Shown: positions 56 to 45,583 of the stretch, piece by piece
How positions within the stretch are numbered: position 1 is the first letter of the stretch
Layout of the letters: each line of letters begins with the position of its first letter
Origin: a virus
Virus record (IMG/VR): IMGVR_UViG_3300045988_131275
Location: 116,170-180,169 of that record
DNA: 64,000 nucleotides
Direction: 5' to 3' (one strand)
Position numbers and translations under genes: made by a program
Notes under the pieces: model-generated
Told to the model about the DNA's origin: nothing
The model's input: only the letters and a program-made list of their open reading frames with translations
Databases searched by the model: none

Positions 56-66
56 TTTTCTTTTAA

Positions 67-139
67 TGGAAACTATAGGACTTGAACCTATACCCTACAG
101 TTCTAAGACCGTCACTCTCCCAAATTGAGCTAAGTTTCC
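67..139 (-). tRNA. tRNA-like gene with non-canonical anticodon loop (identity undetermined)
   Basis: Cloverleaf: acceptor GGAAACU/AGUUUCC (7 bp), D arm GCUC..GAGU with GG loop, T arm AUAGG-UUCAAGU-CCUAU, 5-nt variable loop. The anticodon stem ACGGU/ACUGU leaves a 6-nt loop CUUAGA. Confidence 0.6.
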
Positions 140-255
140 AAAAAATGCGTACAAAAACAACGATGAAAGCCGACTTTCATTTGTGATATTTCTCTATATT
201 TAGTTGTAATTAATTGGAATAATCGCAGAAACGCTATGATTAATAAAGATTTTGC

Positions 256-474: not shown

Positions 475-753
475 TTATATTTTCATATGTCCCTTCTCAG
501 CAAATAATATCGTTTTCTCCTTATTTTTATCTTGTGTTTTTAATGTGGACATTATAAAGTTTCTATTATACGTGATCGGAAGCCCAGTTGTAATAGCTTT
601 AATTCCACAAGTAATACTAATTGGAATAGCTTCACAATCAGGAGATCTTGTATCTAAATCAAATGAGGAAAATAACACATTCTCTCCACCGTTTTTCTTA
701 TACTCAGTTAATAACCTTATCGCTTCATCTACGGACACAATTCTTCCACTCAT
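475..753 (-). CDS. hypothetical protein, translationally coupled downstream of mazF
   Basis: ORF track. Its ATG overlaps the mazF stop as ATGA (750-753). No motif recognised. Confidence 0.6.
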   Translation of the reverse strand: MSGRIVSVDEAIRLLTEYKKNGGENVLFSSFDLDTRSPDCEAIPISITCGIKAITTGLPITYNRNFIMSTLKTQDKNKEKTILFAEKGHMKI

Positions 754-1139
754 GCTAATTCCTCCACTCTGATTTTCTTTTTACCATATAAGTTTGCAAG
801 GAAACATTTTTCTACTAAAAGTCTATCCTCTTCATTGTCAATATTTCCCCATTTTTCAACTACATCACGCTTATCAATAGTAAAAATTTGTTCCCCTAAA
901 ACCATTGAGTCACATTTTAAACCATTAGATTTACTAGCTTTAATTACTTCGTGAGTGGGCTGCTCAACCTTTTTGATTTTACTGGTTAAGCACATGACAA
1001 TCAAAGTAGGAGCAAACTTATTTCCAGAATCATTCTGAATTATAACAACAGGTCTTTCGATCTGCTGAACGTGTGATTTAGCTGATGTATTAACATTTGT
1101 TTTGACATAAAGAATATCAAATATATTAAACTCCATCAT
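750..1139 (-). CDS. mazF: MazF/PemK-family endoribonuclease toxin
   Basis: RPVVIIQNDSGNKFAPTLIVMCLTSKIKKVEQPTHEVI...DSMVLGEQIFTIDKRDV is collinear with the B. subtilis EndoA/MazF core (RPVLVIQND.GN..SPT.IVAAIT....K.PTHVEI...DSVILLEQIRTIDK). Confidence 0.85.
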   Translation of the reverse strand: MMEFNIFDILYVKTNVNTSAKSHVQQIERPVVIIQNDSGNKFAPTLIVMCLTSKIKKVEQPTHEVIKASKSNGLKCDSMVLGEQIFTIDKRDVVEKWGNIDNEEDRLLVEKCFLANLYGKKKIRVEELA

Positions 1140-1279
1140 ATCGTGTGTGCAGCTCCTTTCTTTATCTTATGTACCCTATTATATTACTCTTTACAATAAC
1201 TGTCAAGAATTATTTTAAAGAATTATTGTTAAAAATAACTTTTTATGATATACTTTTAAACATAACGGAGGTGTAATAT

Positions 1280-1696
1280 ATGCTGAAATTAGATGTTAAA
1301 AAATATGTTGATAAACAGTTTGATAACCTGAATCAATTTGCTAAAGCTACAGGATTAAACTATCAAGCTGCTCAAAAAATTTACAATGGCGAAACAACCA
1401 GAATTACATTTGACAATCTTGAATCTATATGTAAAACTTTAAAGGTTACGCCAAATGACATCTTTACATTTGAAGATGTTAAGTCTCCAACAAAAAATGA
1501 AGCAAATGATACTTCTATGCCATCCATATCTAAAAATATTTTACATTCAATACAAATAAATCCAAAGAATATAAAAACAGATGGCGATTCTGATAAACTT
1601 CTTATAGAACTTATACAACAAATTGTTGATAATTCTATAGAGGAGCAATTAAAACAATATTCCATTAATGTTAAAAGTAAAAGCGATGACAAATAG
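1280..1696 (+). CDS. XRE/Cro-type helix-turn-helix transcriptional regulator
   Basis: N-terminus NLNQFAKATGLNYQAAQKIYNGETTRITFDNLESICKTLKVTPNDIF is a typical HTH_XRE. Divergent from mazF. Confidence 0.8.
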   Translation: MLKLDVKKYVDKQFDNLNQFAKATGLNYQAAQKIYNGETTRITFDNLESICKTLKVTPNDIFTFEDVKSPTKNEANDTSMPSISKNILHSIQINPKNIKTDGDSDKLLIELIQQIVDNSIEEQLKQYSINVKSKSDDK

Positions 1697-2936: not shown

Positions 2937-3356
2937 TCAGGCATTATTTATTCCTCCAGTTTCAATGTTATTCTTTTCATCACAATACTTTTTTGCATCA
3001 TCATATGTTTCAAACAAATGAATTTCATCTGATAATTCTTTAACTCTACCGTAATATGAATCGAATCCTATTAATTTATAGGAAATAATTGGATTATTAT
3101 TTTCATTGACTGTAATTTTAATAGCAACAATCTTCCAGTTGATATTATGCACATCATAATAATTCACGGTTTTTTCGTTAAATCTTAGACCTTTTCCACC
3201 ACATTTGGGACACTGACATCTTTCTTGTTTATAAATAAAGAATCCATTACCTTCACAAAATGTACATGGTGTATAATTTGCTATTGTCTTTCTACGTTTA
3301 TACACAAGACGTACTTCCTGTCCTACTTTAAACTTTGTGTTAATATGTAAATCCAT
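2937..3356 (-). CDS. hypothetical zinc-finger protein (CxxCxGxG type)
   Basis: CTFCEGNG...CQCPKCGGKG resembles DnaJ-type zinc-finger repeats. Confidence 0.65.
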   Translation of the reverse strand: MDLHINTKFKVGQEVRLVYKRRKTIANYTPCTFCEGNGFFIYKQERCQCPKCGGKGLRFNEKTVNYYDVHNINWKIVAIKITVNENNNPIISYKLIGFDSYYGRVKELSDEIHLFETYDDAKKYCDEKNNIETGGINNA

Positions 3357-3366
3357 AATTTTCCCT

Positions 3367-3519
3367 CTATTCTTTCTTCTTCAAAATCTTAGTCACTTCT
3401 CCAACACTTATGCAGAATCTTTTAGCAATATCTTTCTTGTCTCCACTTCTATTATAAGCATTCACAATATCATCGTATGTAAATTCTTTCTCTACTGGTA
3501 GATTCATAAAGCTATCCAT
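3367..3519 (-). CDS. small putative HTH protein (50 aa, possible excisionase-like)
   Basis: Not in ORF track (<60 aa). GGAGGA SD, then ATG at 3519. MDSFMNLPVEKEFTYDDIVNAYNRSGDKKDIAKRFCISVGEVTKILKKKE. Lies just downstream of the integrase. Confidence 0.4.
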   Translation of the reverse strand: MDSFMNLPVEKEFTYDDIVNAYNRSGDKKDIAKRFCISVGEVTKILKKKE

Positions 3520-3580
3520 AATCTATATTCCTCCGTATTCTTGCTATAATATACTTCTCTGTTGATCTCATATAATACCT

Positions 3581-4405
3581 CTATTCTATCATATCTGGAT
3601 CATCTTGTGGACATAAATAATCTTCTGGTGTTTCTTCTTCATTCGAGAAAATGCACATTCTTTCCTGGTTTTTAAATATTTCTTCATCAGTGATACAAAT
3701 ATATCTTAAAGTAATACGCATATCAGAATGTCCGAAAATTGTCATAAGCTGTATAAGAGCCTGTTGTTTGTCTGGTGCTGCTAAATAATAACTATGTCCA
3801 AAAGTCTTACGAAGTCCATGAGTACCAATAGACTGTTTAATACCTGCTTTTATTCTATTCCTCTCAACAGTTCTGTACCATGTCATTTCTCCAATATGTT
3901 CACCTTTATTAGAAGAAAAGATATAATCAGTCAACTCAGGTGTTTCATTATGATCTTCTAACCACTTATGCCAATTCTGAATTGCCATTTTAAAATCACT
4001 GTCGTATCTTAATTTAACATATTTTCTTTTAATTACATTTCCACACCTATCTCTACGCTCTGTTTTTTCTGGAACAAACTTCTGTGACTTTTTAATTTTC
4101 CATCCATCTTCATATACATCTTTCCATGTGAATTTACAAAAATCCCCACCACGTAATCCAATATTAATTGCACATATGAACATTGTGAGATTTCGCATAG
4201 CATTCTTTTCTTTATTAACAGTAGTTGCACTATCAACATCTGCTTTAAATACATTGTATACAGATAAAATTTCATCCTTAGTATACAAGCATTCCATCTC
4301 TGTTGACTTTCCACGCCGTAATGTTTTCTGTTTTGGAAAGTTATATATCGTTGCTTTCTGTTTCTGACTAATATAATATGGCTGTTGAACTGCTAAAGCT
4401 TGCAT
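3581..4405 (-). CDS. int: tyrosine recombinase / phage integrase
   Basis: GLRGGDF (Arg), HGLRKTFGH (HxxR) and GHSDMRITLRYI (catalytic Tyr) in the expected order. Confidence 0.85.
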   Translation of the reverse strand: MQALAVQQPYYISQKQKATIYNFPKQKTLRRGKSTEMECLYTKDEILSVYNVFKADVDSATTVNKEKNAMRNLTMFICAINIGLRGGDFCKFTWKDVYEDGWKIKKSQKFVPEKTERRDRCGNVIKRKYVKLRYDSDFKMAIQNWHKWLEDHNETPELTDYIFSSNKGEHIGEMTWYRTVERNRIKAGIKQSIGTHGLRKTFGHSYYLAAPDKQQALIQLMTIFGHSDMRITLRYICITDEEIFKNQERMCIFSNEEETPEDYLCPQDDPDMIE

Positions 4406-4416
4406 AATTCCACCTC

Positions 4417-4602
4417 CTAATATACATCATTCTTCCGTATCTTCTCTAATTTCTCTTTCTTTTGATTAAGATGTCGCACTCTTGCCCTTGGTTTATACTT
4501 GTCACATCTCTGACAATAATGCCAATGGTTTGCATCTCTGCCTTTCTTGCATTCACCCATACAGATATAGTACAGGCATGGTGTCTCTCTATCTTTTGCC
4601 AT
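4417..4602 (-). CDS. small Cys/His-rich protein
   Basis: ORF track. CLYYICMGECKKGRDANHWHYCQRCDKY suggests metal binding. Confidence 0.55.
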   Translation of the reverse strand: MAKDRETPCLYYICMGECKKGRDANHWHYCQRCDKYKPRARVRHLNQKKEKLEKIRKNDVY

Positions 4603-4694
4603 ATTGGTTTCCTCCGTATATTTTTATAACTGCTTCTTTTGTCAAGAGAAGCATAGAACTTGCTTAACGCATATACAGCGTTAATAATATGTAT

Positions 4695-5603
4695 TTAACT
4701 TACCATTGGTGTCTGTCCTACCATTTCAGTAGGTGATTTATCGTATGATTCACATAATGCAGCGAATGTTTTAAGAACTTTACTCCATTCATCTTCCTTA
4801 ATCCATTGAAGATATGGAGATTTACCACGTTGTTTTAACGCAATTCCGTATTTGTACTGCAAGTTTCTATATAGCTCATTCCACATATCAGGGTAGCGAT
4901 TATGTGTCACAAGAGCAAGTTTTCTAATTCCTGCATTAAGAACACTTCTGTCTTTCCATTCAAGAATATCACCTGCAAGGGCTTTATTATCTTTCTCCAA
5001 CTTGTCAATATGCCGATTCTTAAATGCAATTAATTTTGATGTTGCTACCGCCGCTGCACTCGGATCACCACTTGATATTGCCATCCCAACTTCTAACATA
5101 AGTTTCTGTTCTTCTGTAATATCAATAATTTTGGTTTCGGATGAGGTCTTTTCTTCTATATTAAGAAGTTGTGTTCTGACTTCTTTTGCTACATCAGATT
5201 GTTGTAATAACATTCCGATTCTTAAAACAGCTCTTCTACTAAACGCTTTAAGCCCACGATTATTAATTGTGATGATTTGTCCATCCTCAAAAGTATATGT
5301 AACGGAAGTTTGTTTCTTTTCAACGGAAGTAATATTTAGTTTACTTCCGTCATAATAGCTTCTTGGGAACATCTCAACGCCATCTAAATCAATTTCACCT
5401 TTATTATTAGAATATAAAATCTTTATATATTCCGGTGTTACTTCATAATAATCTGCAACTTGATCAATAGACATCATATTTGTTCCAGGTAAAAGCAATA
5501 ATTGTTTTACCTTTTCAAGAACTTCATAATGATTAACGCACTTATCTCTAAGTGTTCTATCGTTACATAGTGGGCTTTCATCTTGATTTTTAATTCTACT
5601 CAT
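4695..5603 (-). CDS. putative antirepressor-like / DNA-binding regulatory protein
   Basis: ORF track. N-terminal HTH-like segment MMSIDQVADYYEVTPEYIKILYSNNKGEI. Sits in the Ant position of an RHH-sRNA-Ant cassette. Function is weakly supported. Confidence 0.6.
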   Translation of the reverse strand: MSRIKNQDESPLCNDRTLRDKCVNHYEVLEKVKQLLLLPGTNMMSIDQVADYYEVTPEYIKILYSNNKGEIDLDGVEMFPRSYYDGSKLNITSVEKKQTSVTYTFEDGQIITINNRGLKAFSRRAVLRIGMLLQQSDVAKEVRTQLLNIEEKTSSETKIIDITEEQKLMLEVGMAISSGDPSAAAVATSKLIAFKNRHIDKLEKDNKALAGDILEWKDRSVLNAGIRKLALVTHNRYPDMWNELYRNLQYKYGIALKQRGKSPYLQWIKEDEWSKVLKTFAALCESYDKSPTEMVGQTPMVS

Positions 5604-5746
5604 ATTAAAATCCTTTCGTATGTAAAATTGTTAATAGTTACTTCTAAACAGTATTTCTCCATTTAGTTTGTAAATATTTGCAATCACATAAGCGATCATT
5701 TCAATATTTAGTTATCAAGGTACAATTTATGTATGGAAAATATGAC

Positions 5747-5775
5747 TTGAAATAGTCCTAGGAATGTAATATAAT
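5747..5775 (+). promoter_or_regulatory. sigmaA-type promoter (TTGAAA-17-TATAAT) for an antisense sRNA
   Basis: TTGAAA at 5747-5752, 17-nt spacer, TATAAT at 5770-5775. Confidence 0.6.
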
Positions 5776-5781
5776 GAAAAA

Positions 5782-5857
5782 GACTAGAACTTTGGTTCAA
5801 GTTGTTGTAGTGTAGGTTGTCGCTTTGGTCGGTTGAGAACCTACACTATTTTATTTT
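5782..5857 (+). ncRNA. candidate ~75-nt antisense sRNA (sar-like) between the RHH and antirepressor-like genes
   Basis: Follows the consensus promoter. Hairpin AGTGTAGGTT (5809-5818) / AACCTACACT (5838-5847), then ATTTTATTTT. Overlaps the 3' end of the convergent RHH gene. Confidence 0.5.
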
Positions 5858-6018
5858 CCACTATGGAAATACTTCATTTCCAGTTTAAAATCTTCATTAA
5901 TATAACCTTGCATAAATCGTTCCAATACTATATTAATTGGAAGTTTTTCTGTTTTGCATTTTTCTTTAAACTGTTCAAGTATTTCTGCATCAATGGAAGT
6001 ATTAAAAGCCTTCTTCAT
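5851..6018 (-). CDS. ribbon-helix-helix (Arc/CopG-like) DNA-binding protein
   Basis: ORF track 5851..6075. ATG at 6018 follows AAGGAGGT. MKKAFNTSIDAEILEQFKEKCKTEKLPINIVLERFMQGY has an RHH pattern and is a paralog of 13340..13522. Confidence 0.7.
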   Translation of the reverse strand: MKKAFNTSIDAEILEQFKEKCKTEKLPINIVLERFMQGYINEDFKLEMKYFHSGK

Positions 6019-6043
6019 AATGCTTACCTCCTTTGATATTGTC

Positions 6044-6072
6044 ATTATACATCTATATGTTGTTATTGTCAA
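6044..6072 (-). promoter_or_regulatory. consensus sigmaA promoter (TTGACA-17-TATAAT) driving the RHH-Ant cassette
   Basis: Reverse strand: TTGACA (6072-6067), 17-nt spacer, TATAAT (6049-6044). TGACAATA is repeated at the -35 and just after the -10, a possible operator. Confidence 0.65.
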
Positions 6073-6093
6073 CATATTTATTTGATTTTACAA

Positions 6094-6129
6094 CAAAAAA
6101 TACCACTAAATTTTTATTTTTAGTGGTAT
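6094..6129 (-). terminator. intrinsic terminator
   Basis: Reverse-strand hairpin ATACCACTAAA/TTTAGTGGTAT followed by T6. Confidence 0.6.
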
Positions 6130-6150
6130 TTTTCCGATGAAATGTCTGAT

Positions 6151-6354
6151 TTATCGGTTTAAAATTCTTTCAATATCATCAACAGTATATCTTATAGAAT
6201 CCATTAAATCACGCACATACTCTTCACCTCTTTTAGAATCGTATCCTAATCTAAGTAATTCAGATATTGCATTTATGATCTTATTATCAATTTCATTTCC
6301 TTTATTTAATAATAATTTTATAACTTCATTAGTTGACATTTTATTTTCACTCAT
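6151..6354 (-). CDS. hypothetical protein
   Basis: ORF track, leftward array. No motif recognised. Confidence 0.6.
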   Translation of the reverse strand: MSENKMSTNEVIKLLLNKGNEIDNKIINAISELLRLGYDSKRGEEYVRDLMDSIRYTVDDIERILNR

Positions 6355-6358
6355 CTTA

Positions 6359-6544
6359 TCACCTCTTAAAATTTAAAATAAATTGAAAATCTTTATCATT
6401 AATATCTACCTGAATCAATTCTCCGTTATCATCCATGATGTCAACCATAGGAGTTTCATATCTTACATAAACTTTTGTACATTCATATTCTTTTCCTTTT
6501 GTAAAATGTTCATCTGTTTTTCTACAAATATCCTTATTATTCAT
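6359..6544 (-). CDS. hypothetical protein
   Basis: ORF track 6359..6616. The internal ATG at 6544 (MNNKDIC) follows GGAGGT. Confidence 0.55.
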   Translation of the reverse strand: MNNKDICRKTDEHFTKGKEYECTKVYVRYETPMVDIMDDNGELIQVDINDKDFQFILNFKR

Positions 6545-6575
6545 CTTATACCTCCTATGAAAACAATCTTTCATT

Positions 6576-6839
6576 TTATTCTCTAATTGTTTTGTAATAA
6601 CTTCCAAACCAGACATGCACCGGAGGATTTTTAGCTCCTGGCATTAAAGAACCACTTATCATTTCCATAACTTGACCAGAATCATTCCAACCATCTGATT
6701 CCATTTCTTTTTTATGTTCCATCTTTTCTTTTTCTGAATCATAATAATACTGTTCTATAAACTCTGTATATTTATCTATGCAGTTATTTCCGTCCCATAC
6801 AAATTTTGTTGTATTATTTTTCATTTTAATTCTTTTCAC
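6576..6839 (-). CDS. hypothetical protein
   Basis: ORF track, leftward array. Confidence 0.6.
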   Translation of the reverse strand: MKRIKMKNNTTKFVWDGNNCIDKYTEFIEQYYYDSEKEKMEHKKEMESDGWNDSGQVMEMISGSLMPGAKNPPVHVWFGSYYKTIRE

Positions 6840-6876
6840 GTAATCAGCTCCATTCTATATTAAAAACAACTTAATC

Positions 6877-7062
6877 TCACAATATTATCCATAAATTTCT
6901 TCCATAGTATTCTCTTCTTATATGAGAAATATCATTATCAATTTTCGATAATTCAATTTTTTCAAAACTTACATTCTTGCAACTATTTATAGTTCTGTTG
7001 CCAAATCTATTTTTGGTACATTCAATTCCGTTTGTTGATTCTTCATACGTCATATAGATCAC
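6877..7062 (-). CDS. hypothetical protein
   Basis: ORF track, leftward array. Confidence 0.5.
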   Translation of the reverse strand: MIYMTYEESTNGIECTKNRFGNRTINSCKNVSFEKIELSKIDNDISHIRREYYGRNLWIIL

Positions 7063-7086
7063 ATCCTTTACAATGAAAGCAATTTT

Positions 7087-7296
7087 TCAACCTCGTTTTG
7101 TTTTATACTTTGCGTATTTCGACTCTCCATTGCATCCTTTATATAATTTCCGTAAAGCAGATCCCAACCCATCTTCCATATCTTTGTCTACTTGTTCATA
7201 TGTTTCAGATGCTTCACCTAAAATTTCTACTGCATCAAATACATAATCTCTAACCTGTTGTAATTCTTTATCCGTAAAATAAATACTTCTTCCCAT
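7087..7296 (-). CDS. hypothetical protein
   Basis: ORF track, leftward array. Confidence 0.6.
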   Translation of the reverse strand: MGRSIYFTDKELQQVRDYVFDAVEILGEASETYEQVDKDMEDGLGSALRKLYKGCNGESKYAKYKTKRG

Positions 7297-7320
7297 TATA
7301 TATCCTCTCTGAAACCGTCA

Positions 7321-7353
7321 TTTTATAGAAAATGGGTGATATTTCTATCACCC
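7321..7353 (-). terminator. intrinsic terminator
   Basis: Hairpin GGGTGATA (7334-7341) / TATCACCC (7346-7353) right after the stop of 7354..; the reverse strand continues ATTTTCT. Confidence 0.5.
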
Positions 7354-7629
7354 TTAACTTGTTCTTCCACGTATAAACCCTTGTACAAAATATAATCTAG
7401 CTGTTCTACAATCTTCCTCATTCCCGTCAACCAGAACTTCTCCAATAGAACTGGCATTTGACTCATATTGTAAAGCTAAATCTAATATACTTTGTAATGT
7501 ATCACTTTGCTTTTTCGCTTCTGACAAATTTAATATTTCTTGCATTTTATATTTTAAAATCGTTTTCTTTTTTGCTAACTTTCCAAGTTCTTCGCCCTGT
7601 TTAAAACAATACCACTTATTCACATCCAT
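7354..7629 (-). CDS. hypothetical protein
   Basis: ORF track 7354..7668. The start at 7629 (MDVNKWY) minimises overlap. Confidence 0.55.
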   Translation of the reverse strand: MDVNKWYCFKQGEELGKLAKKKTILKYKMQEILNLSEAKKQSDTLQSILDLALQYESNASSIGEVLVDGNEEDCRTARLYFVQGFIRGRTS

Positions 7630-7900
7630 CTTGTAACGCTCCCATCGTTTTATTATATAAATCATCACTATAATTATTTAATAATTCTTCGGCGGTTTTC
7701 TGCCATTGATATTCTTCTTCTGTTAATTGATTTAGAATTTCCTCATCAGGAATAGAATATTTTTCAAATGCAGCAACTTTACTACAGAATATTCTATGAT
7801 GATCTTTTACAAGATAAGTGTCAATGCCATAAATACAGTTATTAACAGTTGTAAGTTTATAGCCCATACTTTCTGCATACTTTAATGTACTTTCTAACAT
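7616..7900 (-). CDS. hypothetical protein
   Basis: ORF track 7616..7930. ATG at 7900 (MLESTLKY) follows AAGGAGGA. Confidence 0.55.
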   Translation of the reverse strand: MLESTLKYAESMGYKLTTVNNCIYGIDTYLVKDHHRIFCSKVAAFEKYSIPDEEILNQLTEEEYQWQKTAEELLNNYSDDLYNKTMGALQDGCE

Positions 7901-8036
7901 AATGTAATCCTCCTTATTTTTATGTTCCAATATGGTTCTACTTTAAATAATGTAAAATTTTATAATACTTTTTACATTCCAATATGGGACTACTAAACTT
8001 TACTATATTATATCACATATAAAAGTGACTTGAAAG

Positions 8037-8396: not shown

Positions 8397-9723
8397 AATA
8401 TTTCCTCTATCTTGAAACTATTCTTCTATCGTATCATTTATAAATACGTTCATAGTAAATCATGTAACTTACGCTACATTTATAACTATAGGCGTTAGAA
8501 TAGCCTCTATCCCATATCGACTAATCGCATTTGGAAATGCTTTCTTCATAATCTGAAATGATCCATTTACATCGCTATTAATTAACAATCCAGAATTACT
8601 TTTGAATAAGCCTCTTTGAATACGTCTATTCTTATTATAATTCTCTTTAATTGGATTTTCTTCATCTAAGAAACTCGTTCCAGATGTATAACCTTCTTCT
8701 TGTTCAATATAATTAATTCCAACATTTTCACACTTATATTTAAGTTGTCGTAATAATATTTGGTATGGAATCATTATAAAATTCTGATTAGATTTTTTAC
8801 TCATTATGGATTCTTGTTTCCATTTGTCATTTTTTCCAACAATTAATGTATCTATATTATTTTCAATACACCAATTTATAATATAATGACTTGTATTGTG
8901 CATATAATTCTTAATTCTTTGAAATCTCTTAAAAGTAATTATATCTAATTTCTTTGACCAATCTTTATTGTGCCGTATCTTCAATAATGATTTCTCTTTC
9001 GCAAGTCTCTTATTATAATACTGATTTATGCTTTTGACTCCCTTGCCGTTAATAATAATTGGATTTGATCCGATATTATTTGTCATAGTTACAAGATTAT
9101 TTACGCCTAAATCAATAGCTACTATATTTTTTGATTCTTTATTTATATCGGGAATTTCTATTTCATAGACAATTTCCATTACATAACAAGAGCCTTTTGG
9201 AATAAATCTAACTTGAATTATTCTACCTAAACAACGACATTTCCATTCATAATCATTTACTAAACGATTACTTATATGAATCGTCCCCTTTTCATAATTA
9301 TAATGAAGTTGATTATTTGGAATCATCCAAAGGAATCTCCCATCTTTTTTAAGATATTTAGGTAATTTTGGTATACCTAGATATTTAGATGGATTCCTCT
9401 TCCAATCTTTAATTGCCACAAAATAAGACTTCCAATTTTTATCTAACAACCTCAATGTGCAATTTGCTGGTTGACTAAATGTAAGTTTATAATTTTCATG
9501 TGTTTTAAATTCTTTATTCATATCATAGTAACTTATATATTTGTTATTATTTATAAATTCCTGTCGTAATACATAGTTTGCTTCGTTATATAAATTCTTG
9601 GAATGAAAACACTGTTGATCTATAACTTTAAATTTAGGATGATTCCTTTTAATTATTATTTGTTCACATCTTTGTATTTTTATATTTTATGCACATCCTT
9701 TCGTGTAAAATTATATTACCACC
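8397..9723 (-). mobile_element. IS200/IS605-family (IS1341-like) solo-tnpB element, ends not defined
   Basis: tnpB without a neighbouring Y1 tnpA, wedged between two short phage genes. The boundaries are simply the flanking intergenic limits. Confidence 0.45.
8469..9521 (-). CDS. tnpB: TnpB (IS605 OrfB-type RuvC-like RNA-guided nuclease), 5' end apparently damaged
   Basis: RuvC triad contexts IAIDLGVNNL (D), EEGYTSGTSFLD (E) and NSDVNGSFQIMKKA (D). Another 55 family-typical codons (..CFHSKNLYNEANYVLRQEF..) are in frame upstream (9522-9686) but contain no ATG/GTG/TTG. Confidence 0.8.
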   Translation of the reverse strand: MNKEFKTHENYKLTFSQPANCTLRLLDKNWKSYFVAIKDWKRNPSKYLGIPKLPKYLKKDGRFLWMIPNNQLHYNYEKGTIHISNRLVNDYEWKCRCLGRIIQVRFIPKGSCYVMEIVYEIEIPDINKESKNIVAIDLGVNNLVTMTNNIGSNPIIINGKGVKSINQYYNKRLAKEKSLLKIRHNKDWSKKLDIITFKRFQRIKNYMHNTSHYIINWCIENNIDTLIVGKNDKWKQESIMSKKSNQNFIMIPYQILLRQLKYKCENVGINYIEQEEGYTSGTSFLDEENPIKENYNKNRRIQRGLFKSNSGLLINSDVNGSFQIMKKAFPNAISRYGIEAILTPIVINVA

Positions 9724-12370: not shown

Positions 12371-12407
12371 TTAAAACAGGTGATACCCTTTGACAAGTAC
12401 CACCTGT
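12371..12407 (-). terminator. intrinsic terminator
   Basis: Hairpin ACAGGTG (12376-12382) / CACCTGT (12401-12407). The reverse strand continues TTTTAA. Confidence 0.5.
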
Positions 12408-12419
12408 AAGTATGTAATA

Positions 12420-13163
12420 TTATCGTTCTATATATTCCCATTCAGCAATAAAGTCAAATGCTTCATTGTAATACATAGGGTTTAAATCCTTGTAAGAACT
12501 ACATCCAAACTTTTCTTTTAACTCATTCCACATATTAATGAAATAGCTTTTAGAGTAACATTTATATTTAGTTCCATGCGCTCCATCCAGAAGTTTATTG
12601 ATTCTGTCTTTCGCTGCTTTATATAACTTCTGTTGCTGTCTAGTGGATAACGTCATATTTTCCACCATTTTGTTGAGCATTTCCGTCTGTTCTCCTAGAA
12701 GATCTTCCATTGCGTTAATCTGGACTTGCATTCCTTCAATGCGTCCTGTAAGTCCTAAATCATTATGTAATGTTTCTTTCTGTTCTTCTGTCTCATAAAA
12801 TGCCTTGTGAAGAACATCCGCAGCGTTTAATTGATATTCAAGAAGATTTTTCACCGCTTCTGGGTTTTCTCTTTTCATTGTTGGTGTTAAACGAATTTGA
12901 GCTAACCACATAGGAACGAATTTTTCCACTAAAACTAGCGTATTTCGTACCTGACCGTCAAATTTGACGGGTAGGTTTGTCCAACCATTCTCAAATAAAA
13001 CATTTGACTTCACCTTCTTAACTTCGTTATCTGATTGATTCTCATTAAGTCCAATATCAATACTTGCCTTTCTAATAGCCAACCAAACTTTTCCATCAGA
13101 TGTTCTTACACCTAAAAGTTCATCTTCTCCGAATGGGATTAATTTTACTTCCATTTCGCTCAT
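12420..13163 (-). CDS. antirepressor-like protein (P22 Ant N-terminal-type domain)
   Basis: LIPFGEDELLGVRTSDGKVWLAIRKASIDIGLNENQSDNEVKKVK..., followed by VPMWLAQI, matches the recalled P22_AR_N pattern (lpF.g..L.......G..yva.k.i...lGl....Q..kl). Confidence 0.7.
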   Translation of the reverse strand: MSEMEVKLIPFGEDELLGVRTSDGKVWLAIRKASIDIGLNENQSDNEVKKVKSNVLFENGWTNLPVKFDGQVRNTLVLVEKFVPMWLAQIRLTPTMKRENPEAVKNLLEYQLNAADVLHKAFYETEEQKETLHNDLGLTGRIEGMQVQINAMEDLLGEQTEMLNKMVENMTLSTRQQQKLYKAAKDRINKLLDGAHGTKYKCYSKSYFINMWNELKEKFGCSSYKDLNPMYYNEAFDFIAEWEYIER

Positions 13164-13235
13164 AATTGATTCCTCCTGTACTTGCGTGTTATTTAGTTCT
13201 CAATGTGCATTTGTAAAATATTGGAAATTTTCTGA

Positions 13236-13264
13236 TTGACTAACCAGTAAGAATTAGATATACT
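13236..13264 (+). promoter_or_regulatory. sigmaA-type promoter (TTGACT-17-TATACT) for the second antisense sRNA
   Basis: TTGACT at 13236-13241, 17-nt spacer, TATACT at 13259-13264. Confidence 0.6.
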
Positions 13265-13270
13265 AGAATA

Positions 13271-13341
13271 GTCAATCCGCTTTGGCGATTGATGTCTGGA
13301 AGAGGTTTGTTGCTGTGGTAGGTGCTAACCTCTTCTTTTTT
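13271..13341 (+). ncRNA. candidate ~70-nt antisense sRNA (sar-like), paralogous arrangement to 5782..5857
   Basis: Hairpin GAAGAGGTT (13299-13307) / AACCTCTTC (13327-13335), then T6. Shares CGCTTTGG with the first sRNA. Overlaps the stop of RHH gene 13340..13522. Confidence 0.5.
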
Positions 13342-13522
13342 ATTTTTCCTGTTGATATATGTCGTAGGAAATATTCTTCTTGATCTGAATTTTTCCATCA
13401 ACAAAACCTTGCATTAATACTTCTATAGCTTCATTGAGTTTAAAACCTTGTTTCTTGCATTCAGCCTTAAAAGCGTTCTGTATAGTTTCCTCAACAGGAG
13501 TTGCAAAATTCTTTCTTGCCAT
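13340..13522 (-). CDS. ribbon-helix-helix (Arc/CopG-like) DNA-binding protein
   Basis: MARKNFATPVEETIQNAFKAECKKQGFKLNEAIEVLMQGF is a paralog of 5851..6018. Confidence 0.7.
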   Translation of the reverse strand: MARKNFATPVEETIQNAFKAECKKQGFKLNEAIEVLMQGFVDGKIQIKKNISYDIYQQEK

Positions 13523-13546
13523 TGCTTTATCTCCTTTACAATTAGT

Positions 13547-13575
13547 ATATTATCATTATTTTACTTATTTGTCAA
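13547..13575 (-). promoter_or_regulatory. sigmaA-type promoter (TTGACA-17-TAATAT) driving RHH-Ant cassette 2
   Basis: Reverse strand: TTGACA (13575-13570), 17-nt spacer, TAATAT (13552-13547). Confidence 0.6.
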
Positions 13576-45269: not shown

Positions 45270-45520
45270 TGGACGTATTATCTTATATTATTGCAAGTAG
45301 ACTTCTCTCCTGTCCTGGTGGAAATGGGGCAAATATTAAACTAGATGAAAATGGAAACATTATTACAGATGAAGATGTAACATTATATGTAGATTTTCCT
45401 ACCGCAAGTTTGATGACTGATGGAGATATATTCTCAGTTGAAAATAGTTATTTAATCGCAAAAATTATTGGTGATGTTGCTGAGTTAAATAAGAAAGCAT
45501 GGATTTATTCAATGTTGTAA
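45269..45520 (+). CDS. hypothetical protein
   Basis: ORF track 45245..45520. ATG at 45269 (MDVLSYII) overlaps the upstream stop (TAATG). Confidence 0.55.
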   Translation: MDVLSYIIASRLLSCPGGNGANIKLDENGNIITDEDVTLYVDFPTASLMTDGDIFSVENSYLIAKIIGDVAELNKKAWIYSML

Positions 45521-45583
45521 AAGAGTCATTCACGATGATGTGGGTGGCTCTTTTATTATGCAAAAATATTAATGTGTTATTTT

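What the first reader, a model, noticed from the sequence alone, without database searches (positions are those of the whole stretch)
4695..6072. P22 immI-like cassette: consensus promoter, Arc-like RHH gene, convergent antisense sRNA, antirepressor-like gene
On the reverse strand the order is:
- a perfect TTGACA-17-TATAAT promoter (6072-6044)
- a 55-aa RHH protein (6018-5851)
- a 302-aa regulatory, Ant-position gene (5603-4695)

In the 247-nt spacer the opposite strand carries its own TTGAAA-17-TATAAT promoter (5747-5775). A ~75-nt unit follows, ending in a 10-bp hairpin plus T-run (5809-5857) that overlaps the RHH stop codon.

In Salmonella phage P22 immI, Pant drives arc (RHH) then ant. The small antisense sar RNA is made from a convergent promoter in the arc-ant spacer. 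Finding the same logic in an AT-rich Firmicutes-type phage is unexpected. One difference is that here the sRNA does not cover the ant RBS.
Basis: partly seen in the sequence, partly recalled or inferred. Interest (0 to 1): 0.7.

Follow-up and report, generated by a model that had tools for sequence, protein, structure and literature searches.

The report
Repressor plus antisense RNA gene switch
A large gut (Lachnospiraceae) phage carries a small control cassette – a strong promoter, a tiny Arc-like repressor gene and a conserved ~75-base RNA made from the opposite strand – placed in front of an antirepressor-type gene, and the same cassette occurs a second time in the same genome and in many related phages.

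Summary
The 6072 promoter is one of only two 12/12 consensus sites in 64 kb. The 55-aa protein matches a phage "Arc-like repressor" family.

The plus-strand promoter-to-terminator unit (5782-5857) is a real, conserved small-RNA gene:
- 29 distinct relatives keep the promoter, two hairpins and the T-run.
- All 19 base pairs show compensatory changes.
- G·U pairs are concentrated on that strand (2-7 per RNA, against 0-2 on the complement).
- It has no Rfam family.

The 302-aa protein belongs to a large ORF6N (KilA-N-like) family. Relatives carry KilAC antirepressor domains, but it is not detectably homologous to P22 Ant.

A covariance model found a second, paralogous cassette at 12420-13575. Its downstream gene carries the P22-antirepressor N-terminal domain. 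In a Blautia genome the same module precedes a Bro-N antirepressor-type gene.

So this is a portable repressor-plus-countertranscript module for antirepressor-type genes. Its logic is analogous to P22 immI and to plasmid CopG/RNAII and CopB/CopA controls.

Differences from P22:
- The RNA lies 178 nt from the start codon.
- The RHH partner is exchangeable.
- A conserved leader block is unexplained.

The mechanism (antisense pairing and/or promoter interference) is inferred, not shown. I rate it a new variant of a known kind, of moderate to high interest.

The parts
6091..6133 (-). Intrinsic terminator of the preceding 67-aa gene. It isolates the cassette from upstream transcription.
   Evidence: 15-bp perfect inverted repeat at 6096-6110 / 6119-6133. 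It is followed on the minus strand by TTTTTTGTTG.
6044..6072 (-). Promoter of cassette 1 (TTGACA-17-TATAAT, 12/12).
   Evidence: It is one of two perfect sites in 64 kb.
6055..6077 (-). Putative RHH operator: inverted repeat ATATGTTG-N7-CAACATAT overlapping the -35. A direct repeat TGACAATAWCAA sits at 6033-6049 / 6060-6076.
   Evidence: Inverted repeats that overlap or adjoin the -35, with different sequences, also occur at the RHH-gene promoters of L002, L022, L107 and L116; none was found at cassette 2's promoter or in L176. Binding is inferred.
5851..6018 (-). RHH1, a 55-aa Arc-like ribbon-helix-helix protein.
   Evidence: PHROG 3180 'Arc-like repressor', E = 4e-12. 33% identical to RHH2 (E = 1e-8). 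No Pfam or PDB sequence hit.
5747..5775 (+). Promoter of sRNA1 (TTGAAA-17-TATAAT, 11/12), convergent with the 6072 promoter.
   Evidence: The -35 and -10 keep their positions in diverged lineages.
5782..5857 (+). sRNA1, about 75 nt. It has a 5' hairpin (5783-5804) with loop UUUG, then a terminator hairpin (5808-5848) with apical UUUGGUC and a T-run (5849-5857). It is antisense to the RHH1 stop codon and the first ~70 nt of the spacer.
   Evidence: Fold z = -3.7. CM hit at 5780-5859: 101 bits with R1 and 85 bits with R2. Covariation; strand asymmetry. No Rfam family.
5604..5746 (-). 143-nt conserved leader between the sRNA promoter and the ATG. The predicted fold pairs AUAUUGAAAU with the AUUUUAAUAU that immediately precedes and enters the AUG.
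   Evidence: z = -4.9 for the 271-nt spacer. The related 153-nt leader type has compensatory pairs and a helix over the AUG.
5705..5725 (-). Conserved block TTGTACCTTGATAACTAAATA (consensus GyACnTTGAnAAyTnAATA). Its role is unknown.
   Evidence: Invariant columns in A1. Present in most long-leader lineages and in cassette 2. This cassette-1 version is unique in the window at up to 3 mismatches.
4695..5603 (-). 302-aa ORF6N-family (KilA-N-like) protein: an N-terminal alpha/beta domain, a coiled coil and an uncharacterised C-terminal helical domain.
   Evidence: (25 of 67 relatives hit PF10543).
13547..13575 (-). Promoter of cassette 2 (TTGACA-17-TAATAT, with TG).
13340..13522 (-). RHH2, 60 aa, a paralogue of RHH1.
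13236..13264 (+). Promoter of sRNA2 (TTGACT-17-TATACT).
13269..13348 (+). sRNA2: two hairpins plus a T-run overlapping the RHH2 stop codon.
   Evidence: CM hits of 28 bits (R1) and 44 bits, E = 3e-6 (R2). Fold z = -3.9.
13189..13209 (-). Conserved block, copy 2 (TGCACATTGAGAACTAAATAA).
12420..13163 (-). 247-aa protein with P22_AR_N and ORF6C domains (antirepressor family).
   Evidence: Pfam PF10547 at 1.7e-14 and PF10552 at 1.4e-14. PHROG anti-repressor families. NCBI names relatives 'phage antirepressor N-terminal domain-containing protein'.

Best explanation
This is a self-contained regulatory cassette for an antirepressor-type gene in the early/lysogeny region of a roughly 170-kb Lachnospiraceae phage.

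**Proposed mechanism**
1. A near-perfect sigma-A promoter (6072) transcribes the Arc-like RHH gene and reads on through a 247-nt spacer into the ORF6N-family gene.
2. The RHH dimer probably binds the inverted repeat over the -35 and shuts its own promoter.
3. A second, convergent, near-consensus promoter in the spacer makes a ~75-nt non-coding RNA. It ends at a terminator overlapping the RHH stop codon.
4. This countertranscript is perfectly complementary to the RHH-gene junction of any read-through mRNA and carries YUNR-type loops (UUUG, UUUGGUC) typical of fast-pairing antisense RNAs.
5. I propose it keeps the downstream gene silent once the RHH has lowered promoter activity. It would do this by duplex formation, followed by cleavage and decay of the downstream half, together with head-on interference between the two promoters about 255 bp apart.
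6. A burst of transcription from the unrepressed 6072 promoter, for example on entry into a naive cell, would override it.

**Shown**
- The anatomy.
- Conservation and covariation of the RNA.
- The family assignments.
- The modularity: two paralogous cassettes, three kinds of downstream antirepressor-type genes, and exchangeable upstream regulators.

**Inferred**
- Expression of the RNA.
- RHH autoregulation.
- The direction of regulation.
- The route: antisense decay versus interference.
- Antirepressor activity of the 302-aa protein.

The confidence of 0.5 applies to this mechanism as a whole. I put the existence of the small-RNA gene itself at about 0.85.
For: **Anatomy**
-.

**The RNA gene is real**
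- At least 20 loci keep promoter, two hairpins and T-run, giving a 65-86 nt unit.
- In 17 of 17 lineages the sRNA strand folds better than the gene strand, with 2-7 G·U pairs against 0-2.
- All related CM hits lie on the strand opposite the downstream gene; the one exception is a weak hit at 45495-45561 that looks like an ordinary terminator.
- 19 of 19 pairs carry double changes. 95% of cells are paired, against 60% in shuffles and 37-49% in slid controls.

**The link to the downstream gene**
- Loci L005, L028 and L029 keep the RNA-promoter-leader-gene unit behind a different upstream gene.
- L032 and L048 have only a promoter upstream, so the RNA is antisense to the 5' part of the gene's own leader.

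**Class of the downstream genes**
- ORF6N family, with KilAC-bearing relatives.
- P22_AR_N + ORF6C in cassette 2.
- Bro-N + ORF6C behind the same RHH2-sRNA2 module in Blautia fusiformis.

**RHH and operator**
-.

**Precedents for the logic**
- P22 sar/ant and P1 c4/ant (PMC12197685).
- pMV158 CopG/RNAII and R1 CopB/CopA (PMC4485353, PMC5717011).
Against: - No expression data exist.
- The RNA does not overlap the RBS.
- I found no second-site complementarity to the leader beyond shuffled controls (z from -1.3 to +1.7).
- Blocking the target gave no consistent change in predicted accessibility of the translation start.
- No attenuator terminator was found in the leader.
- The apical loop UUUGGUC(G) is conserved although the stems covary. 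Pure cis-antisense pairing does not require this, so a protein or a common trans partner may be involved.
- The conserved block (5705-5725) contains a good -35-like TTGAnA. It might belong to a second promoter whose transcripts would escape the RNA.
- Some lineages (L038, L044) keep block and leader without the RNA, so the gene can be expressed and controlled without it.
- The window copy of the 302-aa protein itself scores below threshold for every Pfam and PHROG family.
Confidence: 0.5

Rival explanations
1. The small RNA regulates the upstream gene rather than the downstream one. By pairing with the 3' end of the RHH (or Xre) mRNA it would stabilise or destabilise the repressor message, working as an RNA anti-repressor or a timer for repressor supply.
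For: - The RNA overlaps the stop codon or last codons of the upstream gene in every lineage.
- The RHH gene and the body of the RNA are exchanged together as one block, as in L176 compared with cassette 2.
Against: - The RNA persists when the upstream gene is an unrelated 130-aa protein (L005, L028) or is absent (L032, L048).
- Its promoter and the adjoining leader are co-inherited with the downstream gene.
Confidence: 0.15
2. The act of transcription matters, not the RNA. The convergent promoter with its terminator would be a roadblock or insulator that limits read-through into the antirepressor-type gene by RNA-polymerase collision and promoter occlusion.
For: - Two near-consensus convergent promoters lie about 255 bp apart.
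- There is no RBS overlap and no second-site pairing.
Against: Interference alone does not explain two hairpins kept by compensatory changes, the G·U strand bias, or a conserved apical loop. A terminator needs only one hairpin.
Confidence: 0.15
3. The cassette is a toxin-antitoxin-like or kil-type addiction module. The KilA-N/ORF6N/Bro-type protein would be harmful to the host and be held off by both a small DNA-binding protein and an antisense RNA, rather than acting on the phage repressor.
For: - Xre-Bro (repressor-antirepressor) pairs were noted as TA-like mobile two-gene modules, and some Ant-domain proteins are toxic (PMC2701414).
- PemK and HicA toxin genes lie within a few kilobases of the gene in the window and in some relatives.
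- The module is highly mobile and mosaic.
Against: - No toxin domain is detected.
- The protein is large and looks like a DNA-binding regulator.
- This rival concerns the function of the cargo and is compatible with the same control mechanism.
Confidence: 0.15
4. Chance: an AT-rich genome throws up a promoter-like site next to the hairpin that merely ends or stabilises the RHH transcript.
For: Sites of 11/12 or better occur about 7 times per window by chance.
Against: - The hairpin has its T-run only on the plus strand.
- Promoter and hairpins are conserved with covariation in 29 distinct sequences.
- A paralogous copy exists in the same window.
Confidence: 0.03

Closest known systems
Salmonella phage P22 immI (Pant - arc - sar - ant)
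   Same: - A strong promoter, an Arc-type RHH gene first and an antirepressor-type gene second.
- A 68-69-nt (here ~75-nt) antisense RNA from a convergent promoter between them (PMC12197685).
- Cassette 2's cargo shares the P22 Ant N-terminal domain family.
   Different: - sar covers the ant RBS; here the RNA lies 178 nt upstream of the ATG (about 106 nt in cassette 2).
- There is no divergent mnt.
- The 302-aa protein is not detectably homologous to Ant.
- The RHH is exchangeable for Xre-type or other genes.
- A long conserved structured leader is present.
- The host is a Gram-positive anaerobe.
Plasmid copy-control circuits: pMV158 CopG (RHH) / RNAII / repB, and R1 CopB / CopA / tap-repA
   Same: - A small repressor is cotranscribed with the downstream gene.
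- A short countertranscript with a hairpin and U-tail is made from the intergenic leader.
- Control is dual, transcriptional and antisense. In pMV158 the repressor is an RHH autorepressor in a Firmicutes replicon (PMC4485353, PMC5717011).
- In R1 the antisense target also lies well upstream of the regulated start codon (my own knowledge of R1; not checked in the papers read).
   Different: - The cargo is not a replication initiator.
- No conserved leader peptide is present; small uORFs are not conserved.
- The RNA has two hairpins and a conserved apical loop.
Phage P1/P7 immI (c4 RNA - icd - ant)
   Same: A ~77-nt structured RNA controls an antirepressor gene in a large plasmid-like prophage (PMC12197685).
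   Different: c4 is processed from the same transcript and pairs in trans with sites at the RBS. Here the RNA is made from the opposite strand and no RBS pairing was found.
Xre/RHH - Bro/KilA/Ant two-gene modules (Makarova et al. 2009)
   Same: A small DNA-binding protein gene sits immediately upstream of a shuffled-domain antirepressor-type gene, and the pair is mobile among phages (PMC2701414).
   Different: That description contains no RNA component. The conserved countertranscript and leader are additional.

Membership tests
P22-type immI region | Arc-family RHH repressor encoded first in the operon | tested here: met
   PHROG 3180 'Arc-like repressor', E = 4e-12. The gene lies directly behind the promoter. 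DNA binding was not tested.
P22-type immI region | Small antisense RNA from a convergent promoter between the two genes | tested here: met
   Promoter, terminator, fold, covariation and strand bias. Expression is not testable here.
P22-type immI region | The antisense RNA overlaps the ribosome-binding site of the antirepressor gene | tested here: not met
   The predicted 5' end at 5782 is 178 nt from the ATG at 5603. There is no extra complementarity to the leader or RBS.
P22-type immI region | Downstream protein homologous to Ant (P22_AR_N / AntA / KilAC domains) | tested here: not met
   The 302-aa protein has no Pfam hit, and its family hits ORF6N instead. The feature is met only by the cargo of cassette 2 (PF10547).
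P22-type immI region | Second repressor (Mnt) transcribed divergently from the ant promoter | tested here: not met
   Upstream of 6072 lie a terminator and co-directional genes.
P22-type immI region | The protein inactivates the prophage repressor | not testable with these tools
   A candidate target exists: the 138-aa Cro/CI-type HTH protein at 1280-1696 (+).
Cop-type plasmid replication control (pMV158 / R1) | Repressor gene cotranscribed with the downstream gene, plus a countertranscript in the leader | tested here: met
   Anatomy. Literature: PMC5717011, PMC4485353.
Cop-type plasmid replication control (pMV158 / R1) | The regulated gene is the replication initiator | tested here: not met
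   No Rep domain is detected. The family carries the ORF6N domain, and fold matches are to KilA-N or regulatory proteins.
ORF6N domain proteins (PF10543) | Significant match to the ORF6N profile | tested here: inconclusive
   The window protein itself gives no hit at E <= 0.1. 25 of 67 full-length relatives (30-57% identical) hit ORF6N, best 1.4e-6. BFVD fold matches to KilA-N proteins are weak, from a model with pLDDT 71.
KilAC/ANT (PF03374) or ORF6C (PF10552) C-terminal domain | C-terminal domain matches the profile | tested here: not met
   No Pfam hit. hhalign against the ORF6C-containing family gives probability 0.5%. The KilAC-bearing relative aligns convincingly only over the N-terminal ~165 residues.
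Any described RNA family (Rfam 15) | Match at the gathering score | tested here: not met
   Only two tRNAs are found in the window. The best sub-threshold hits at 5783-5851 score 19-20 bits against gathering scores of 35-91.
Type I toxin-antitoxin | Small hydrophobic toxin ORF overlapped by the antisense RNA | tested here: not met
   The overlapped ORF is a hydrophilic RHH.

The most novel reading that the evidence does not exclude
The ~75-nt RNA would be the founding member of an undescribed family of phage regulatory RNAs.
- It forms a plug-in module with swappable partners: RHH, Xre or none upstream, and ORF6N-, P22_AR_N- or Bro-N-type cargo downstream.
- A single phage can carry several independent, specificity-matched copies, that is, multiple anti-immunity switches.
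- The apical loop UUUGGUC(G) is conserved while the stems covary freely, and the RBS is not covered. The RNA may therefore not work as a simple occluding antisense.
- It could instead work through a shared protein or RNA partner, or through a relay with the conserved structured leader and block. That would be a mechanism not described for antirepressor control.
Probability: 0.25. Interest if true: 0.8.

Novelty: new variant of a known kind. Interest (0 to 1): 0.6.

Why it matters
- Lysis-lysogeny control in the abundant large phages of gut Lachnospiraceae is, to my knowledge, essentially unstudied.
- This locus offers a compact, testable switch made of promoter, RHH, countertranscript and antirepressor-type gene. 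It is widespread: the cargo family has over 1300 clusters at 50% identity, and the RNA is seen in dozens of phage and prophage loci.
- It adds an RNA family that is absent from Rfam.
- It shows that RNA control of antirepressor genes, known from P22 and P1 in enterobacteria, has a counterpart in Firmicutes phages built on the plasmid-style Cop logic.
- Its mosaic, cassette-like inheritance suggests that immunity specificity can be swapped as a unit.
- Such modules could also serve as orthogonal regulatory parts for anaerobes.

Tried and rejected
1. **Known RNA family.** The Rfam gathering scan of the window and a permissive scan of 5500-6200 gave nothing relevant.
2. **Second pairing site at the RBS or leader (P1 c4 style).** RNAduplex of each sRNA against its own leader was no better than against shuffled leaders in 16 cassettes.
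3. **Relay model.** I asked whether occupying the target changes accessibility of the translation start. Partition-function folding with the target blocked gave no consistent shift.
4. **Attenuation (pT181 / pIP501 style).** No terminator was found in the leader (and reading).
5. **Leader peptide with translational coupling (R1 tap style).** The window has a 20-codon uORF ending in AUAUGA, but its ATG is lost in sister lineages where the stem is kept instead. Rejected.
6. **The conserved block as a sigma-A promoter.** It has a good -35 but no acceptable -10 at 16-18 nt in any lineage. Unresolved.
7. **C-terminal domain of the 302-aa protein as ORF6C or KilAC.** Rejected.
8. **The 302-aa protein as a solved fold.** Sequence searches against PDB chains and Foldseek against PDB gave nothing.
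9. **The RHH against PDB sequences and Pfam.** No hit.
10. **Extra copies of the loop or block motifs elsewhere in the window.** None.
11. **A third CM hit at 45495-45561.** It looks like an ordinary co-directional terminator.
Full report
**1. The observation**

Reading the minus strand confirms every element.
- TTGACA-17-TATAAT lies at 6072..6044.
- An AAAGGAGG Shine-Dalgarno precedes a 55-aa ORF at 6018..5851.
- A 247-nt spacer follows, then a 302-aa ORF at 5603..4695.

On the plus strand:
- TTGAAA-17-TATAAT lies at 5747..5775.
- A hairpin follows, with arms at 5808-5821 and 5835-5848.
- ATTTTATTTTCC comes next and overlaps the RHH stop codon.

The two promoters are the two best consensus matches in 3000-8000. 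In the whole window only two sites are 12/12, and sites of 11/12 or better number 14 against 7.4 +/- 2.6 expected. The minus-strand promoter is therefore exceptional, while the plus-strand one needs other support. The 85-nt plus-strand unit folds into two hairpins with z = -3.7.

A perfect 15-bp terminator hairpin (6096-6133) sits just upstream of the 6072 promoter, so the cassette starts its own transcription unit. An 8-bp inverted repeat, ATATGTTG-N7-CAACATAT (6077-6055), overlaps the -35.

**2. What the window is**

The window is AT-rich (about 30% GC) with strand-switching gene blocks. It is about 94% identical in places to a 176-kb uncultured phage from human faeces, MT835469.

In that relative the whole stretch 4420-6542 is replaced by unrelated DNA. 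This stretch holds the 61-aa gene, the 302-aa gene, the spacer, the RHH gene and two small genes, so the region is a mosaic module.

Close homologues lie in Blautia, Eubacterium, Roseburia, Robinsoniella and other Lachnospiraceae/Clostridia genomes. Nearby in the window are:
- a tyrosine recombinase (3581-4405);
- a PemK toxin gene;
- a Cro/CI-type HTH gene on the other strand (1280-1696).

**3. The proteins**

RHH1 matches PHROG 3180 'Arc-like repressor' (E = 4e-12). It has no Pfam or PDB sequence hit.

The 302-aa protein has no Pfam, PHROG or NCBIfam hit by itself. It nevertheless belongs to a very large family:
- 1333 clusters at 50% identity have E <= 1e-3.
- More than 1400 clusters at 90% identity are found.
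- Among 67 diverse full-length members, 25 hit Pfam ORF6N (best 1.4e-6) and one carries a KilAC/ANT domain.
- Phage and plasmid relatives sharing the N-terminal ~150-165 residues are annotated as antirepressors, and two of the three phage relatives scanned plus the plasmid relative carry KilAC. Examples are Mycobacterium phage Sbash gp45, Alicyclobacillus phage MMB025 and C. botulinum p1BKT015925.

An AlphaFold model (pLDDT 71) shows an alpha/beta N-domain, long coiled-coil helices and a helical C-domain.
- Foldseek finds nothing in the PDB.
- In BFVD it finds weak KilA-N and 'regulatory protein' matches.
- The C-domain is neither ORF6C (hhalign probability 0.5%) nor KilAC.

The protein is therefore antirepressor-like by domain kinship only. 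It is not detectably homologous to P22 Ant.

**4. The small RNA is real and sits on the plus strand**

Contexts of homologues show the same layout in many lineages. An alignment shows:
- a hairpin after the upstream stop codon whose stem sequence differs completely between lineages (AGTGTAGGTT, AGAGTGAGT, AAGTGAGCTG and others);
- the -35 and -10 of the opposite-strand promoter kept in place.

A scan of 60 non-redundant upstream regions found a promoter plus terminator giving a 65-86-nt unit in at least 20 of them.

In 17 of 17 lineages the sRNA strand folds far better than its complement, by typically 5-15 kcal/mol. It contains 2-7 G·U pairs against 0-2 on the other strand.

Covariance models built from these sequences hit related loci only on the strand opposite the downstream gene; the single exception is a weak window hit at 45495-45561 that looks like an ordinary terminator. 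On 29 distinct sequences:
- 19 of 19 pairs carry changes on both sides;
- 95% of cells are paired, against 60% in column shuffles and 37-49% when partners are slid.

The alignment was fitted by the model, so these figures lean towards the structure. The strand bias and the hand-read stems are independent of that fitting.

The apical loop of the terminator hairpin (UUUGGUC, often followed by GG) and the UUUG loop of the first hairpin are conserved in most lineages although the stems vary. Both fit the YUNR U-turn motif of fast-pairing antisense RNAs (my own knowledge). The RNA has no AUG or Shine-Dalgarno, and no Rfam family matches it.

**5. What the RNA travels with**

- In L005, L028 and L029 the cargo protein is 91-98% identical, yet the upstream gene is an unrelated 130-aa gene. 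The hairpin, RNA promoter, leader and gene are all retained.
- In L037, L053 and L058 the upstream gene is an Xre-type HTH whose last codons run into the hairpin.
- In L032 and L048 only a promoter (TTGACT-17-TACAAT) lies upstream, so the RNA is antisense to the 5' part of the gene's own leader.
- In L078 and L081 the RNA promoter lies 20-33 nt from the ATG.

The constant pair is therefore RNA plus downstream gene, and the RHH is one of several interchangeable upstream partners. Conversely, between cassette 2 and L176 the RHH gene and the body of the RNA are exchanged together, while the RNA -35, block, RBS and gene stay nearly identical.

**6. A second cassette**

Model R1 found a second copy at 13270-13348 (+) (28 bits with R1; 44 bits, E = 3e-6 with R2). 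The region has the same order:
- promoter TTGACA-17-TAATAT (13575-13547);
- a 60-aa RHH (13522-13340), 33% identical to RHH1;
- plus-strand promoter TTGACT-17-TATACT (13236-13264);
- a two-hairpin RNA with a T-run over the stop codon (z = -3.9);
- the same conserved block (TGCACATTGAGAACTAAATAA);
- a 247-aa gene (13163-12420).

That gene carries the Pfam P22_AR_N and ORF6C domains, and NCBI names its relatives 'phage antirepressor N-terminal domain-containing protein'. In Blautia fusiformis (L107) an almost identical RHH2-sRNA2 module precedes a Bro-N + ORF6C protein.

One regulatory design thus serves three N-terminal domain types of the shuffled 'antirepressor' protein class.

**7. The leader**

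Between the RNA promoter and the RBS lies a conserved leader. A block with consensus GyACnTTGAnAAyTnAATA is nearly invariant across long-leader lineages and cassette 2. The cassette-1 version of it occurs only once in the window at up to 3 mismatches.

The 153-nt leader type has a consensus structure with compensatory pairs, including a long-range helix over the AUG. The window's 143-nt leader is predicted to pair AUAUUGAAAU with the AUUUUAAUAU just before and into the AUG.

I could not assign a role to the block. It contains a good -35-like hexamer but no usable -10. It persists in L038 and L044, which lack the RNA.

**8. Mechanism**

Several specific models found no support:
- RBS occlusion or second-site pairing;
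- a structural relay to the translation start;
- attenuation;
- a coupled leader peptide.

What remains, and what I commit to at roughly even odds, is the following.
- Read-through transcripts from the RHH-controlled promoter carry a perfect 75-nt target.
- The countertranscript pairs with it through its YUNR loops.
- Pairing leads to cleavage and decay of the downstream half of the transcript.
- The convergent near-consensus promoters, about 255 bp apart, also interfere head-on.

Together with RHH autorepression through the inverted repeat over the -35, this would give a burst of cargo expression on entry and tight silence afterwards.

The rivals are these:
- the RNA acts on the repressor mRNA;
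- pure transcriptional interference;
- a kil/TA-like cargo (PMC2701414);
- chance, which is excluded.

The conserved loop and block remain unexplained. They keep open a more novel mechanism.

**9. Comparison and novelty**

In logic the cassette equals P22 immI (arc-sar-ant) and P1 immI (c4-ant) (PMC12197685). Equally, it matches the Firmicutes plasmid circuit CopG(RHH)/RNAII/repB of pMV158 and CopB/CopA/repA of R1 (PMC4485353, PMC5717011).

It fails membership of P22 immI on three defining features:
- RBS overlap;
- Ant homology, for cassette 1;
- a divergent mnt.

It fails membership of the Cop circuits on the nature of the cargo.

The RNA family, its portability with exchangeable partners, its duplication within one genome and its conserved leader are, as far as Rfam and the literature searches show, undescribed. 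I rate it a new variant of a known kind, with interest 0.6.

Noticed in passing
window 12420-13575: A second, paralogous cassette: promoter, 60-aa RHH, convergent ~75-nt RNA, the same conserved block, and a 247-aa P22_AR_N + ORF6C antirepressor-family gene. It was found with the covariance model built from cassette 1.
   Followed up: yes
window 5705-5725 and 13189-13209; leaders 5604-5746: The block GyACnTTGAnAAyTnAATA is conserved, and the 5' leader is structured. Compensatory pairs and a sequestered AUG are seen in the 153-nt type. The block's role is unknown. It persists in loci that lack the RNA (L038, L044).
   Followed up: partly
window 5747-5804 (also L031 and cassette 2): The 5' hairpin region of the RNA is an inverted repeat of its own -35 region (ACTTGAA...TTCAAGT). 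On read-through mRNA this would form a long hairpin enclosing the -10. Its meaning is unclear.
   Followed up: partly
window 4420-6542 versus MT835469 (L001 3919-5299): The whole module (61-aa gene, 302-aa gene, RNA, RHH and two small genes) is replaced by unrelated genes in a phage that is otherwise ~94% identical. This is a mosaic exchange next to the tyrosine recombinase gene.
   Followed up: yes
window 8469-9521 (-): A 350-aa TnpB-like protein (OrfB_IS605 plus the Cas12f1-like TNB domain) lies inside the early gene block. No search for its omega-RNA or transposon ends was made.
   Followed up: no
window 475-1206 (-) and 1280-1696 (+): A PemK/MazF toxin gene (750-1139), with a 92-aa gene just downstream of it, lies behind the window's other perfect 12/12 promoter (1206-1178). 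Divergent from them is a 138-aa Cro/CI-type HTH gene, a candidate prophage repressor and possible target of the antirepressor-type proteins.
   Followed up: partly
window 66-140 (-): Rfam calls a tRNA here (56 bits), but ARAGORN reports an undetermined anticodon ('tRNA-???').
   Followed up: no
window 12390-12418 (+): An 11/12 promoter-like site (TTGACA-17-TGTAAT) points into the 3' end of the 247-aa gene, next to that gene's terminator. It may be chance.
   Followed up: no
L088-L104 (about 40% identical ORF6N homologues), roughly 60-200 nt upstream of the gene: Instead of the RNA, these lineages carry 2-4 copies of a ~24-bp palindrome (AAAGGnACAAnnTGTnCCnTTA) upstream of the gene. This suggests operator-based control of the same cargo family.
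   Followed up: no
L116 2923-3183; L080 88-179; L083 760-832: Further RHH-plus-RNA modules or RNA-model hits lie next to ORF6N genes but not directly upstream of them. They suggest additional cassettes in those prophages.
   Followed up: partly
window 45495-45561 (+): A weak hit of RNA model R2 (25.8 bits, E = 0.03) in the late-gene region. It looks like an ordinary co-directional terminator hairpin.
   Followed up: partly
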